Below, piece by piece: positions 23,259-24,796 of a DNA stretch of 48,034 nt (position 1 is its first letter; every line of letters begins with the position of its first letter). The stretch lies in IMG/VR virus record IMGVR_UViG_3300029079_000001, one strand, 5' to 3'. The position numbers were made by a program, and so were the translations under genes. The stretch is from a virus. Taxonomy: Duplodnaviria > Heunggongvirae > Uroviricota > Caudoviricetes. The notes below the pieces were generated by a model. That model worked only from the letters and a program-made list of their open reading frames with translations, was not told the origin of the DNA and did no database searches.

Positions 23259-23308
23259 GAGTTTTAACCTGTAATTTTATACAGTATCAAATAACCTTTT
23301 TTAATTAA

Positions 23309-23527
23309 ATGGTATTAGATTCAATGACTGAAGCATCTGTATCAACTCTTGAAGAACTCGAATCAAACCTAAAAGACATCGACGCCGTTTTGGATCTGGT
23401 TAGCGTTGCTCTGGCTTCTCCCGAAGCTAGCTTGCATCTTGGCGAGATTTCACGGCTTGTTAGTATGTCGCGGGAGATTGCTCAGAATTGCCAACAAGCG
23501 ATTGCTGTTGAGTGTTTACATCATTGA
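23309..23527 (+). CDS. Hypothetical acidic small protein (72 aa), candidate repressor-controlled early/anti-immunity function
   Basis: ORF downstream of the operator-like site. Confidence 0.4.
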   Translation: MVLDSMTEASVSTLEELESNLKDIDAVLDLVSVALASPEASLHLGEISRLVSMSREIAQNCQQAIAVECLHH

Positions 23528-23570
23528 TACACACCCCGCCCTTCTGGACGGGGTAGCGAAAAGTGATTAA

Positions 23571-23858
23571 TCAATAGACGGCATTAATATTAATCGTTGC
23601 GCCACATGCTTGGGCATATTTTGATAAAGTTTTCATGCTTGCTCCTAAAGGATTGCTTTCCAGGCGGCTGATGGCGGACGGGCGCAAGCCCATTCTTTCT
23701 GCCAGAGCTGACTTCGTTAAACCTGCTCTTTCCCTCATTTCGTATAACATTTCGACCATCTCCAGTTCTTTATCGGCCTCTTCATATCCTTTGATAGCTT
23801 CTGGAGTGTTGAGTAGTTTTTCCTTTACTTCGTTAAACGGGATGCCTTTTGCTTTCAT
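23571..23858 (-). CDS. HTH (XRE-family) antitoxin, HigA-like
   Basis: 95 aa; HTH LTKSALAERMGLRPSAISRLES; start overlaps the upstream toxin stop. Confidence 0.65.
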   Translation of the reverse strand: MKAKGIPFNEVKEKLLNTPEAIKGYEEADKELEMVEMLYEMRERAGLTKSALAERMGLRPSAISRLESNPLGASMKTLSKYAQACGATININAVY

Positions 23859-24169
23859 CAGTTCATCTCCTTCAGGCGAGTTCTGGCGATTTCTATAGCC
23901 TTTACTGGTGTTTTCTGTGTCTTTTTTACAAATGCATGCAATAGATAAATTTCGTTACCAGTCGCGTAGGCGTATAGCGTTCTTGCGATATTTTTATCCC
24001 CTACTCTTAGTTCAAAGAGTCCTCCGCCTATTACACGGCTATGGGGCATCTTAAGTTTGTTTCCTTCTTTCTCAAGCCGTTCAATTAGCCTGGTCATGCG
24101 ACCTCGCAGATCGTCTGGTAGTTCAAGCAGTTCATCCAGTGCTGCAGGGTGGGTTATCACGTTAAACAT
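23858..24169 (-). CDS. RelE/ParE-superfamily toxin, Gp49/HigB-2-like
   Basis: 103 aa from ATG 24169 with AGGAGG RBS; toxin-upstream-of-antitoxin (hig-type) order; ...LFELRVGDKNIARTLYAY... core. Confidence 0.55.
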   Translation of the reverse strand: MFNVITHPAALDELLELPDDLRGRMTRLIERLEKEGNKLKMPHSRVIGGGLFELRVGDKNIARTLYAYATGNEIYLLHAFVKKTQKTPVKAIEIARTRLKEMN

Positions 24170-24227
24170 ATTATAGCCTCCTAACGCGCAAAATACACCA
24201 AAACGAGAAAACATTGCAAACATAAAA

Positions 24228-24245
24228 TTTCACTAAAAAGTGAAA
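24228..24245. promoter_or_regulatory. Palindromic operator in the toxin-antitoxin promoter
   Basis: TTTCAC-TAAAAA-GTGAAA inverted repeat 60 bp upstream of the toxin start. Confidence 0.5.
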
Positions 24246-24315
24246 AATAACGCTGGATGTGTTCGTTTGGCAGAGTTACAGTTCGTGTTGTTGAGGGGGA
24301 TAACCCACTAACTGT

Positions 24316-24555
24316 ATGAATTTGGAGGATATTATGAATTATCAAGGTAACGAAAAAATGCGCGACGACGTTGCTGAGATAGCTAACGAACTGTATGAGT
24401 TGTGGCAGAAGGTTGAACGTTTCGAAAAGGAATATGGTTTCAACAGTACCAACCTAGCAGACCGACTGGCTGGTCGCTTAGTTGGGACTATGGGGCCAAA
24501 ACTGGCTGAGTTGAACCGCTTTATGGCTGATGTTGATTTCCAGTTTCAAGATTGA
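24316..24555 (+). CDS. Hypothetical protein (79 aa)
   Basis: ORF with GGAGG RBS. Confidence 0.45.
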   Translation: MNLEDIMNYQGNEKMRDDVAEIANELYELWQKVERFEKEYGFNSTNLADRLAGRLVGTMGPKLAELNRFMADVDFQFQD

Positions 24556-24568
24556 TTAGAGAGGCGTT

Positions 24569-24796
24569 ATGAATATTAATGAAATTCGTGGAAATATGAC
24601 TGAAGCGGCCCTGAGTGTGGAATGTGTTATGCGTGGATACCCACGCATTTCCCTGAAAGAGTTAAGCGAAGCCTGTTTTTTGAGTCAAGTTGCCGTTGAA
24701 TTTATCATCGAACAGATGATCTGTTTTGGGGTTGCAAAGCGTAGTGGATCTGGTCGATATTCTTTGACCGATGAATATAAGCAGGCAACTTTCTAA
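24569..24796 (+). CDS. Hypothetical protein (75 aa)
   Basis: ORF; followed by sopC-like site #3 and terminator hairpins. Confidence 0.45.
   Translation: MNINEIRGNMTEAALSVECVMRGYPRISLKELSEACFLSQVAVEFIIEQMICFGVAKRSGSGRYSLTDEYKQATF

What the first reader, a model, noticed from the sequence alone, without database searches (positions are those of the whole stretch)
23571..24260. Toxin-antitoxin module (Gp49/HigB-2-like toxin with XRE-HTH antitoxin) and palindromic operator
Two overlapping minus-strand genes in toxin-then-antitoxin order, preceded by the inverted repeat TTTCAC-N6-GTGAAA, form a probable addiction or phage-defence module on the plasmid-prophage. Correct toxin start is ATG 24169, not the longer ORF-track frame.
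Basis: partly seen in the sequence, partly recalled or inferred. Interest (0 to 1): 0.45.

Follow-up and report, generated by a model that had tools for sequence, protein, structure and literature searches.

The report
N15 gp49/gp48 toxin-antitoxin pair with operator
This is the well-known toxin-antitoxin "addiction" gene pair of N15-type linear phage-plasmids (an mRNA-cutting toxin, its DNA-binding antidote and the small palindrome the antidote most likely binds), so it is real but ordinary.

Summary
On the minus strand a 103-aa toxin gene (24169..23858) overlaps a 95-aa antitoxin gene (23858..23571) by one base. An inverted repeat lies 59 nt upstream of the toxin ATG. It is a 7-4-7 palindrome, TTTCACT-TTTT-AGTGAAA (24228-24245), rather than 6-N6-6.

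The window is an N15-like linear phage-plasmid. The toxin is 92% identical to N15 gp49, the founding member of Pfam Gp49 (PF05973), and the antitoxin is 86% identical to N15 gp48. That pair is the published tad-ata-type stabilising module (Dziewit 2007, not readable here).

The AlphaFold model matches the ribosome-dependent RNases M. tuberculosis HigB1 and S. pneumoniae HigB, and the proposed catalytic residues are conserved. ATG 24169 is the right start.

The palindrome alone is no better than chance. It is, however, strongly conserved, and it stays with the module in chromosomal copies that lack the phage neighbours. Equivalent 7-4-7 palindromes of other sequence occur upstream of 18 of 30 diverse family members. 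It is therefore most likely the antitoxin operator, not the "terminator" annotated in N15. It sits upstream of the -35, which is unusual.

"HigB-2-like" is imprecise, and nothing here supports a defence role. Already known; low interest.

The parts
23858..24169 (-). Toxin gene (103 aa). Orthologue of N15 gp49, Pfam Gp49/Tad family, RelE-fold ribosome-dependent mRNA endonuclease.
   Evidence: Pfam PF05973, E 2.5e-29. 92% identical to N15 gp49. Profile hits to PDB HigB 6af3 (E 4.7e-10) and HigB1 7nbu (E 9.8e-8). AF2 pLDDT 87.8, and Foldseek TM 0.77 to 7nbu_Y. The proposed catalytic residues are conserved. pN/pS is 0.06-0.08.
23571..23858 (-). Antitoxin gene (95 aa). Orthologue of N15 gp48. [quoted passage not shown]
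   Evidence: HTH_3 E 1.6e-12. 86% identical to N15 gp48. PDB hits to HipB, HigA2 and S. pneumoniae HigA 6af3_B, the last covering residues 9-90. phrog_1373 E 3.4e-36. pN/pS about 0.09-0.13. One-base overlap with the toxin stop, TGATG.
24228..24245 (.). 18-bp palindrome TTTCACT-TTTT-AGTGAAA, the inferred operator for an antitoxin dimer. The centre lies about 52 nt upstream of the inferred transcription start.
   Evidence: Only exact copy in the window. Diversity 0.057 against 0.38-0.47 in flanking variable DNA. Retained at the same distance from the promoter in chromosomal copies without the phage neighbours, with changes in both arms. A 7-4-7 geometry is found upstream of 18 of 30 diverse family members against 0.45 expected.
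24214..24219 (-). Inferred -35 hexamer, TTGCAA.
   Evidence: The TTG is conserved across N15-like and chromosomal copies, 8 nt downstream of the palindrome. It falls below the threshold of the consensus scan, so this is an inference from conservation.
24190..24197 (-). Inferred -10 region. Read either as TGTATT with a 16-nt spacer and a TG extension, or as TATTTT with an 18-nt spacer. N15 has TATATT at a 17-nt spacer.
   Evidence: The block TTTTGGT(A/G)TATTT has diversity 0.073 between two variable blocks. The same arrangement occurs in Xenorhabdus, Winslowiella and Yersinia copies. No transcription start data are available.
24177..24182 (-). Shine-Dalgarno sequence AGGAGG, 7 nt upstream of the toxin ATG.
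   Evidence: Read directly from the sequence. Conserved in the alignment.
23533..23554 (.). G+C-rich hairpin 16 nt after the antitoxin stop, between convergent genes. Probably a 3'-end or terminator structure, but it lacks a U tract.
   Evidence: RNA fold -22 kcal/mol, z -3.7, with 0 of 200 shuffles folding as well. Not called by the terminator scan.

Best explanation
This is the type II toxin-antitoxin operon of an N15-like linear phage-plasmid, orthologous to N15 genes 49 and 48 (the Tad-Ata / Gp49-HTH family).

Proposed mechanism:

1. One short-leader transcript starts from a weak sigma-70 promoter: -35 TTGCAA at 24219-24214 and a -10 around 24197-24190.
2. The transcript encodes first the 103-aa toxin and then the 95-aa antitoxin. 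The two are translationally coupled through a TGATG overlap.
3. The toxin is a RelE-fold endonuclease. By analogy with M. tuberculosis HigB1 and S. pneumoniae HigB, it enters the ribosomal A site and cuts translated mRNA.
4. The antitoxin binds the toxin through its N-terminal segment and neutralises it. As a dimer, alone or in complex with the toxin, it binds through its XRE helix-turn-helix domains to the 18-bp palindrome TTTCACT-TTTT-AGTGAAA (24228-24245), whose half-site centres are 11 bp apart, and represses the operon.
5. The site covers about -44 to -61. Repression would therefore work by blocking UP-element/alpha-CTD contacts, or together with weaker sites in the core promoter.
6. If the prophage is lost, the antitoxin is expected to decay faster than the toxin. 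The freed toxin then arrests growth, which stabilises the plasmid-prophage.

What is shown here:
- gene structure;
- family membership, fold and residue conservation;
- orthology to N15;
- purifying selection on both genes;
- conservation of the palindrome and its co-travel with the module.

What comes from the literature:
- the stabilising toxin-antitoxin activity of N15 gp49/gp48;
- ribosome-dependent mRNA cleavage by family members.

What is inferred:
- the promoter position;
- antitoxin binding to the palindrome;
- the mode of repression;
- differential stability of the two proteins.
For: Gene structure and start.

Family:
- Pfam Gp49, E 2.5e-29, and HTH_3, E 1.6e-12.
- PHROG families 2523 and 1373.

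Orthology:
- 92% and 86% identity to N15 gp49 and gp48, in the same neighbourhood of gp47, gp50, gp51 and the methylase.
- The window is 88% covered at 96% identity by N15-like phage YDC107_1.
- Dziewit et al. 2007 (J Bacteriol 189:1983) is cited in PMC2701414, PMC3581621 and PMC4489591. Its title reports that N15 encodes a tad-ata-type stabilising toxin-antitoxin system, and PMC3581621 names the gp49-gp48 locus.

Fold:
- AF2 pLDDT 87.8 and pTM 0.81.
- Foldseek top hits are HigB1 7nbu_Y (TM 0.77) and S. pneumoniae HigB 6af4 (TM 0.68-0.72), followed by RelE and YoeB.
- Profile search gives E 4.7e-10 and 9.8e-8 to the same proteins.

Catalytic residues. In the alignments, read against PMC9098466 and PMC7984235:
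- R45 matches K58; E53 matches E66; R55 matches R68; N60 matches N73.
- R63 is one position off R77.
- F80 matches F93; K82 matches K95; Q85 matches Q98; K86 matches K99.
- E53, R55, R63, F80 and K82 are invariant in 36 homologues, and Q85 is nearly so.

Selection:
- All 55 N15-like loci with the toxin start motif have intact genes of 102-104 aa and 95 aa.
- pN/pS is 0.06-0.13 at pS 0.66-0.84.

Operator:
- Conserved.
- Kept with the promoter in chromosomal contexts: Winslowiella TTTCACT-ATTT-AGTGAAA, Xenorhabdus TTTCTCT-TTTT-AGAGAAA, Yersinia ATTAACT-TAAT-AGTTAAT. The Pectobacterium copy, which still has the gp50 neighbour, has TTTATCT-TTTT-AGATAAA.
- Lost together with the promoter and toxin when a hicAB cassette replaces them.
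- Perfect 7-4-7 repeats occur in 18 of 30 diverse upstream regions, against 0.45 expected and a maximum of 3 in 500 shuffles. Odd spacers are almost absent.
- V. cholerae HigA2 binds a single 7-N5-7 operator as an HTH dimer (PMC11006873).
Against: - No binding, transcription or toxicity data exist for this sequence, and the primary N15 paper could not be read here.
- The promoter is weak by consensus, at 8 of 12 matches. It was not called by the scan and has no mapped start.
- The palindrome lies upstream of the -35. Studied relatives (V. cholerae HigA2) and the more distant family members found here have theirs over the core promoter.
- 13 of 36 distinct N15-like upstream sequences have one imperfect arm (e.g. 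TTTCGC, TTTAAC, TTTATC or GTTAAA), and hybrids exist. Half-site positions 4-5 are therefore loosely constrained. Some both-arm changes could reflect palindrome-templated correction rather than selection by the protein.
- The Buttiauxella chromosomal copy lacks the palindrome.
- There is no simple correspondence between recognition-helix residues and half-site sequence.
- Both-arm changes would equally preserve a hairpin.
Confidence: 0.85

Rival explanations
1. The module is a genuine toxin-antitoxin pair, but its main role in the lysogen is anti-phage defence (abortive infection or exclusion of superinfecting phage) rather than plasmid addiction.
For: Type II RelE-superfamily modules are discussed as defence toxins (PMC11980606). 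The toxin's C-terminal half hits the RelE-like domain of the PADLOC candidate NsnC at E 2.6e-7. Homologues also sit in chromosomes and in Stx and lambdoid prophages, where plasmid stabilisation is irrelevant.
Against: There is no full-length match to any PADLOC system protein. The only experimental report for the N15 orthologue is of stabilisation (title of Dziewit 2007). No phage-sensing component is evident. The two roles are not exclusive.
Confidence: 0.15
2. The palindrome is not the antitoxin's operator. It is a regulatory site for the divergent gp50-gp51 genes, or for a host or other phage protein, and its conservation reflects that role.
For: It lies in a shared 164-nt divergent intergenic region, next to even better conserved blocks at 24253-24262 and 24271-24295. 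It is upstream of the inferred -35 of the toxin promoter, a position more typical of activator or UP-element sites.
Against: Chromosomal copies in Winslowiella, Xenorhabdus and Yersinia have no gp50 and none of the conserved blocks. They still keep a 7-4-7 palindrome 8 nt upstream of the -35. In L009 and L057 a hicAB cassette replaces the palindrome, promoter and toxin; in L057 gp50-side block1 and block2 remain up to the junction (only block2 in L009). There is only one copy in the 48-kb element.
Confidence: 0.1
3. The palindrome is a weak rho-independent terminator or RNA hairpin, as annotated in the N15 GenBank and RefSeq records.
For: N15 annotates it as a 'putative rho-indep. transcription terminator'. 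As RNA it folds at -6.2 kcal/mol (z -4.7) and is followed by UUUUAU. Changes in both arms would preserve a stem.
Against: Nothing upstream on either strand ends there, because the flanking genes diverge. The stem has only 2 G-C pairs in 7. Many lineages carry single-arm changes that break pairs without compensation. In relatives the equivalent palindrome lies between or over promoter hexamers. The fixed 18-bp frame, with half-site centres 11 bp apart, fits an HTH dimer. There is no Rfam match.
Confidence: 0.04
4. The toxin is a ParE-like gyrase poison, or a catalytically inactive RelE-fold protein, rather than a ribosome-dependent RNase.
For: The RelE/ParE superfamily includes gyrase inhibitors. 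PGAP's label is the generic 'RelE/ParE family toxin'. M. tuberculosis HigB2 and HigB3, of the same family, are non-toxic (PMC9098466).
Against: The best sequence and fold matches are the RNases HigB1 and S. pneumoniae HigB, and ParE structures score much worse (TM 0.38-0.50). All residues proposed as catalytic in HigB1 have counterparts, most of them invariant in the family. Strong purifying selection acts on the gene.
Confidence: 0.04

Closest known systems
Bacteriophage N15 gp49-gp48 (tad-ata-type stabilising toxin-antitoxin module; Dziewit et al. 2007, J Bacteriol 189:1983)
   Same: Orthologous. The proteins are 92% and 86% identical, with the same lengths (103 and 95 aa) and the same one-base overlap. 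The neighbours match (gp47, gp50, gp51, methylase). The palindrome is identical, and the promoter layout is the same.
   Different: Synonymous sites are nearly saturated (pS about 0.7-0.8). There is a one-base deletion and an A-to-G change in the -10 region. The linker and spacer sequences differ. No functional difference is evident.
M. tuberculosis HigB1 (HigB-TAC, Rv1955; PDB 7nbu, 7awk) with HigA1
   Same: Same Pfam family (PMC11980606). It is the best structural match (TM 0.77), and the catalytic residues align. The toxin-first order and the HTH-Xre antitoxin are shared (PMC3581621).
   Different: Only 27% identical. The mycobacterial system needs a SecB-like chaperone as a third gene, and there is none here. 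The CCA-codon preference is not known to transfer.
S. pneumoniae HigBA (PDB 6af3, 6af4)
   Same: Best sequence match in the PDB for the toxin (E 5.5e-5 with the single sequence, 4.7e-10 with the profile). The antitoxin also matches over residues 9-90. It has the long C-terminal helix, and the antitoxin binds promoter palindromes (PMC7984235).
   Different: 24% identity. Four palindromes are reported in its promoter, against one clear site here.
V. cholerae HigB2-HigA2 (PDB 8a0x, 5ja8)
   Same: RelE-fold toxin first, and an antitoxin with an N-terminal neutralising segment plus a C-terminal XRE HTH. A single operator with 7-bp arms, TGTACGC-N5-GCGTACA, is bound by an HTH dimer (PMC11006873).
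   Different: A different Pfam family (PF06296), not matched by this toxin, and a weak fold match (TM 0.56-0.58). Its operator spans from after the -35 across the -10, whereas here the site is upstream of the -35. The spacer is 5 nt rather than 4.
Tad-Ata of Paracoccus aminophilus pAMI2 and s045-s044 of SXT
   Same: Same family as defined in the literature: toxin COG4679/DUF891, antitoxin with an Xre HTH, and a stabilising function (PMC2701414, PMC4489591).
   Different: Their sequences were not compared here, and they sit on a plasmid and an ICE rather than a phage-plasmid.

Membership tests
Pfam Gp49 (PF05973) / Tad toxin / COG4679 | Sequence scores above the family's curated threshold | tested here: met
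   101.6 bits against a cut-off of 23.9, E 2.5e-29, covering profile positions 1-90 of 90. All 119 listed homologues with a precomputed Pfam entry carry PF05973.
Pfam Gp49 (PF05973) / Tad toxin / COG4679 | RelE (BECR) fold with a long C-terminal helix | tested here: met
   The AF2 model has pLDDT 87.8 and the element order E-H-H-E-E-E-E-H. Foldseek gives TM 0.77 to HigB1 7nbu_Y and 0.68-0.72 to S. pneumoniae HigB.
Pfam Gp49 (PF05973) / Tad toxin / COG4679 | Residues proposed as catalytic in HigB1 and S. pneumoniae HigB are present | tested here: met
   R45, E53, R55, N60, R63, F80, K82, Q85 and K86 align to K58, E66, R68, N73, R77 (one position off), F93, K95, Q98 and K99. E53, R55, R63, F80 and K82 are invariant in 36 homologues.
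Pfam Gp49 (PF05973) / Tad toxin / COG4679 | Toxin gene first, followed by an overlapping Xre-HTH antitoxin gene | tested here: met
   One-base overlap, TGATG. The antitoxin matches HTH_3 at E 1.6e-12.
Type II toxin-antitoxin system (functional definition) | The toxin inhibits growth, and the antitoxin neutralises it by direct binding | not testable with these tools
   By its title and citing papers, Dziewit 2007 reports that N15 encodes a tad-ata-type stabilising toxin-antitoxin system, and PMC3581621 names the gp49-gp48 locus (here 92% and 86% identical). The paper itself is not held.
Type II toxin-antitoxin system (functional definition) | Autoregulation through antitoxin binding to an operator at its own promoter | tested here: inconclusive
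   A conserved palindrome travels with the module, and the geometry is shared across the family. There are no binding or reporter data, and the site is upstream of the inferred -35.
V. cholerae HigB2 family (Pfam RelE, PF06296) | Sequence match to PF06296 | tested here: not met
   PF06296 does not appear for the toxin at E<=0.1. HigB2 structures are only weak fold matches (E 1e-2, TM 0.56-0.58).
ParE gyrase-poison family (PF05016) | Sequence or closest-fold match to ParE | tested here: not met
   No PF05016 hit. ParE structures rank below the RNases, with TM 0.38-0.50.
Known anti-phage defence systems (PADLOC-DB v2) | Full-length match of the proteins to the components of a defined system | tested here: not met
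   The toxin matches only positions 229-282 of the 293-position NsnC model. The antitoxin gives generic HTH hits.
Intrinsic (rho-independent) terminator, as the palindrome is annotated in N15 | G+C-rich stem followed by a T run, at the end of a transcription unit | tested here: not met
   Not called by the scan. The stem has 2 G-C pairs of 7 and folds at -6.2 kcal/mol. The flanking genes diverge from it. Uncompensated arm changes are common.

The most novel reading that the evidence does not exclude
The 18-bp palindrome, annotated in N15 as a terminator, is the Gp48 operator. It belongs to a family-wide 7-4-7 operator code for Gp49-HTH modules. In the N15 lineage the operator has moved from the core promoter to the UP-element position (about -44 to -61). 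The antitoxin would then control the promoter by an atypical route: blocking alpha-CTD contacts, or acting as an activator or repressor depending on the toxin:antitoxin ratio. The module could then also serve as a superinfection-defence switch of the phage-plasmid.
Probability: 0.15. Interest if true: 0.35.

Novelty: already known. Interest (0 to 1): 0.12.

Why it matters
It matters little beyond correct annotation. The pair explains part of the stable inheritance of N15-like phage-plasmids, which are common in clinical and animal E. coli, Shigella and Klebsiella isolates. The toxin start should be annotated at 24169.

The one modestly useful by-product is comparative. The stem-loop labelled 'terminator' in the N15 reference record behaves like an antitoxin operator. 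Gp49-HTH modules across many phages share an 18-bp 7-4-7 palindrome geometry with variable half-sites. This gives a ready set of natural operator/antitoxin pairs for studying XRE-HTH specificity.

Tried and rejected
- **Longer 121-aa toxin ORF from ATG 24223.** Rejected because the ATGs are not conserved, the ORF lies upstream of the inferred -10, and there is no SD.
- **Consensus promoter/terminator scan of 23300-24700.** It found only one promoter-like site, inside the toxin gene, and no terminator. The promoter model therefore rests on conservation alone.
- **Terminator reading of the palindrome.** Rejected.
- **Palindrome as a multi-copy site of a phage regulon.** Rejected: there is one exact copy, and the three further matches with 2 mismatches are at chance level (4 matches in all, 2.65 expected).
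- **Statistical significance of the palindrome from the window alone.** Not significant.
- **A second operator over the -10.** The candidate TTTCTCG-TTTT-GGTGTAT (24193-24210) matches O1 at 13 of 18 positions. It overlaps the conserved -10, has weak internal symmetry, and is not reproducible in Yersinia. Left as unproven.
- **Correspondence between recognition-helix residues and half-site sequence.** No simple rule emerged.
- **HigB2 (PF06296), ParE and PADLOC membership.** Not met.
- **NCBIfam.** Only sub-threshold hits.
- **Rfam on the region.** Only chance-level hits.
- **Reading Dziewit 2007 directly.** Not held, by DOI or by PMC id.
- **Sigma-70 or sigma-54 promoter for gp50 in the conserved blocks 24253-24295.** None convincing on manual inspection.
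Full report
**1. What is there**

Read on the minus strand, the region contains the following features, in order:

- an 18-bp palindrome, TTTCACT-TTTT-AGTGAAA (24245..24228);
- 8 nt of linker, then TTGCAA (24219..24214);
- a 16-18 nt spacer, then TGGTGTATTTT (24200..24190);
- AGGAGG (24182..24177);
- ATG 24169, opening a 103-codon ORF that ends with TGA at 23860..23858;
- an ATG that shares base 23858 with that stop codon and opens a 95-codon ORF ending at 23571;
- a G+C-rich hairpin 16 nt further on (23554..23533; -22 kcal/mol, z -3.7), facing a convergent gene.

The repeat it gave as 6-N6-6 is really 7-4-7.

**2. Start codon**

The ORF list extends the toxin frame to ATG 24223, giving 121 aa. 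The short form from 24169 is correct, for these reasons:

- The extra ATGs are missing in N15 and phiKO2.
- The Pfam domain begins at residue 12 of the short form.
- Listed homologues are mostly 102-108 aa, and the Enterobacterales members in the alignment begin MF/MY at the same position.
- A strong SD precedes 24169.
- N15, phiKO2 and PGAP-annotated plasmids all annotate CDSs of 312-315 nt from the equivalent ATG.

**3. Identity of the element and of the genes**

The 1.1-kb region is 90-98% identical to about 30 non-mobilizable plasmids, most about 46 kb, of E. coli, Shigella, E. fergusonii and E. albertii. It also matches Escherichia phages YDC107_1 and PhiR46_1, and is 78% identical to Klebsiella phage phiKO2. 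Twenty-four kb around it is 88% covered at 96% identity by YDC107_1. The window is therefore an N15-like linear phage-plasmid.

The toxin is 92% identical to N15 gp49 and the antitoxin is 86% identical to N15 gp48. The neighbours are the same: gp47, gp50, gp51 and the DNA methylase. N15 gp49 gave its name to Pfam family Gp49 (PF05973), which the toxin matches at E 2.5e-29. The antitoxin matches HTH_3 at E 1.6e-12.

The literature treats the N15 gp49-gp48 locus as a toxin-antitoxin module of the tad-ata family. The source is Dziewit et al. 2007, cited in PMC2701414, PMC3581621 and PMC4489591. Its title reports that N15 encodes a stabilising system of this type. I could not read the primary paper, so I rely on its title and on the citing texts.

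**4. Toxin fold and chemistry**

- A profile of 36 homologues finds only S. pneumoniae HigB (E 4.7e-10) and M. tuberculosis HigB1 (E 1e-7) among solved structures.
- An AlphaFold2 model built from that alignment has pLDDT 87.8 and pTM 0.81.
- Its best Foldseek matches are ribosome-bound HigB1 (7nbu_Y, TM 0.77) and S. pneumoniae HigB (TM 0.68-0.72). RelE and YoeB follow, and V. cholerae HigB2 and ParE come much lower.
- I read the HMMER alignments against the residues that PMC9098466 and PMC7984235 propose as catalytic. The window toxin has R45, E53, R55, N60, R63, F80, K82, Q85 and K86 at the positions of HigB1 K58, E66, R68, N73, R77 (one position off), F93, K95, Q98 and K99.
- E53, R55, R63, F80 and K82 are invariant in the 36-sequence alignment.

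HigB1 cleaves mRNA in the ribosomal A site between the second and third codon bases. The same chemistry is the natural inference here, but the codon preference cannot be inferred.

**5. Antitoxin**

Residues about 36-88 form the XRE helix-turn-helix domain. The roughly 30 N-terminal residues precede it, as in S. pneumoniae HigA (matched over residues 9-90) and V. cholerae HigA2, where the N-terminal segment neutralises the toxin.

**6. Selection**

All 55 N15-like loci recovered that carry the toxin start motif have intact genes of 102-104 aa and 95 aa. Between the window and N15, pS is 0.72-0.84 and pN/pS is 0.08-0.09. Both genes are maintained by strong purifying selection.

**7. The palindrome**

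Taken alone it is not significant. 41% of shuffles of the intergenic region contain an equally good inverted repeat with 6-bp arms, and the window holds only one exact copy. Four comparative observations make it a real element that belongs to the toxin-antitoxin module.

(a) Conservation. Across 36 distinct N15-like upstream sequences, its nucleotide diversity is 0.057. The 8-nt linker scores 0.38, the promoter spacer 0.47 and the leader 0.43. The inferred -10 block scores 0.073 and the SD 0.10.

(b) Co-travel with the module. Chromosomal copies sit in unrelated neighbourhoods with no gp50. Examples are Winslowiella, Xenorhabdus and Yersinia, with toxins 67-77% identical. They keep the layout of palindrome, 8 nt, TTGnnn, 17 nt, TATATT-like. 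Their half-sites are either the same (TTTCACT/AGTGAAA) or changed in both arms:
- TTTCTCT/AGAGAAA in Xenorhabdus;
- ATTAACT/AGTTAAT in Yersinia;
- TTTATCT/AGATAAA in a Pectobacterium N15-like element.

(c) Joint loss. In Klebsiella grimontii L009 and IMG/VR L057, a hicA-hicB cassette replaces the palindrome, the promoter and the toxin gene. In L057 the replacement starts just after the gp50-side conserved blocks; L009 keeps only the second of them. An orphan gp48 remains.

(d) Shared geometry across the family. Among 30 non-redundant upstream regions of Gp49-HTH modules (toxin identity 40-100%), 18 contain a perfect 7-4-7 inverted repeat of varying sequence. Examples are CATAACT-N4-AGTTATG, GTTATCA-N4-TGATAAC, ATTGCAT-N4-ATGCAAT and ACTAACA-N4-TGTTAGT. 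Shuffles give 0.45 on average and at most 3 in 500, and odd spacers are almost absent.

The half-site centres are 11 bp apart, about one helical turn. That is what a dimer of HTH domains needs. V. cholerae HigA2 binds a 7-N5-7 site in just this way.

**8. Caveats on the operator**

- There are no binding data.
- The promoter is weak by consensus (8 of 12), was not called by the scan, and is inferred from conservation alone.
- With that promoter, the palindrome spans about -44 to -61, the UP-element zone. In V. cholerae, in the Stx-phage homologue (ATAACAAATTTGTTAT between the -35 and the -10) and in several distant members, the site overlaps the core promoter.
- 13 of 36 distinct N15-like upstream sequences have one imperfect arm, and hybrids exist. 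Positions 4-5 of the half-site are therefore loosely constrained.
- Both-arm changes would also preserve a hairpin.
- No simple rule links the recognition helix to the half-site.
- Buttiauxella lacks the site.

I put the operator reading at about 0.7 and the toxin-antitoxin identity at above 0.95.

**9. Rivals**

- **Terminator.** This is the annotation in the N15 record. It fails because the flanking genes diverge from the site, the stem has 2 G-C pairs and folds at -6.2 kcal/mol, uncompensated arm changes are common, and relatives place the palindrome inside promoters.
- **Regulation of gp50.** A role in gp50 regulation is made unlikely by points (b) and (c) above, though a dual role is not excluded.
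- **Defence.** A defence role is possible but unsupported. PADLOC gives the toxin only a partial hit to the RelE-like domain of NsnC.
- **ParE-like gyrase poisoning.** The fold ranking and the conserved residues contradict it.

**10. Comparison and novelty**

This is a member of the Gp49/Tad family, with every sequence-level criterion met. More precisely it is an orthologue of the experimentally described N15 pair. PGAP already annotates it in dozens of plasmids as a 'RelE/ParE family toxin' plus a 'helix-turn-helix transcriptional regulator'.

'HigB-2-like' should be dropped. V. cholerae HigB2 is in PF06296, which this protein does not match.

The finding is correct and ordinary. The only mildly new point is that the N15 'terminator' stem-loop is better read as the module's operator, one instance of an 18-bp palindrome geometry shared across the family.

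Noticed in passing
window 24253-24262 and 24271-24295 (between the palindrome and the divergent gp50-like gene, which starts at 24334 on the + strand): Two non-coding blocks are as conserved as coding DNA across 36 N15-like sequences: ACACATCCAG (diversity 0.10) and CTCAACAACACGAACTGTAACTCTG (diversity 0.034). They occur only where gp50 (YubE-like) is present and are absent from chromosomal toxin-antitoxin copies. I saw no convincing sigma-70 or sigma-54 promoter in them. Function unknown.
   Followed up: partly
L009 1339-2288 (Klebsiella grimontii NZ_FZTC01000002.1) and L057: At the same locus of an N15-like element, a hicA-hicB cassette replaces the palindrome, the promoter and gp49. In L057 the junction lies directly after the gp50-side conserved blocks; L009 keeps only ACACATCCAG. 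An orphan gp48 homologue (81-82% identical) remains downstream. This looks like a cassette swap between toxin-antitoxin families.
   Followed up: partly
L059 410-1230 (IMGVR_UViG_3300039366_000144): An IS3-type transposase ORF sits where the toxin gene should be, and the gp48 homologue is truncated and fused after residue 70. The module appears to have been inactivated by an insertion sequence.
   Followed up: no
L001 1424-1444 (N15 NC_001901.1 40551-40571): The N15 reference record annotates the palindrome as a 'putative rho-indep. transcription terminator'. The comparative evidence here argues that it is an operator.
   Followed up: yes
window 23533-23554: A strong G+C-rich hairpin lies between the convergent antitoxin and gp47-like genes (-22 kcal/mol, z -3.7). 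It has no U tract on either strand. It may be a bidirectional terminator or a 3'-end stabiliser.
   Followed up: partly
window 23309-23527 (+): A 72-aa gp47-like ORF downstream of the module matches phrog_6301 (E 4e-35, unknown function). It also matches a PHROG annotated as anti-repressor more weakly (phrog_10889, E 1e-6).
   Followed up: no
L065 701-2093 (Photorhabdus luminescens SBIJ01000063.1): Two Gp49-HTH modules lie back to back in divergent orientation. The upstream region of the copy examined has an imperfect palindrome with a shortened spacer (TTTCTCT-TTT-AGAGTAA).
   Followed up: no
L005 1395-1440 and L006 (Stx-converting and lambdoid phages 75/02 Stx and PhiR5_2): A 43-48%-identical Gp49-HTH module in lambdoid prophages carries a different perfect 16-bp palindrome, ATAACAAATTTGTTAT. 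It lies between a TTGAAT -35 and a TATGTT -10, the classical operator position.
   Followed up: partly
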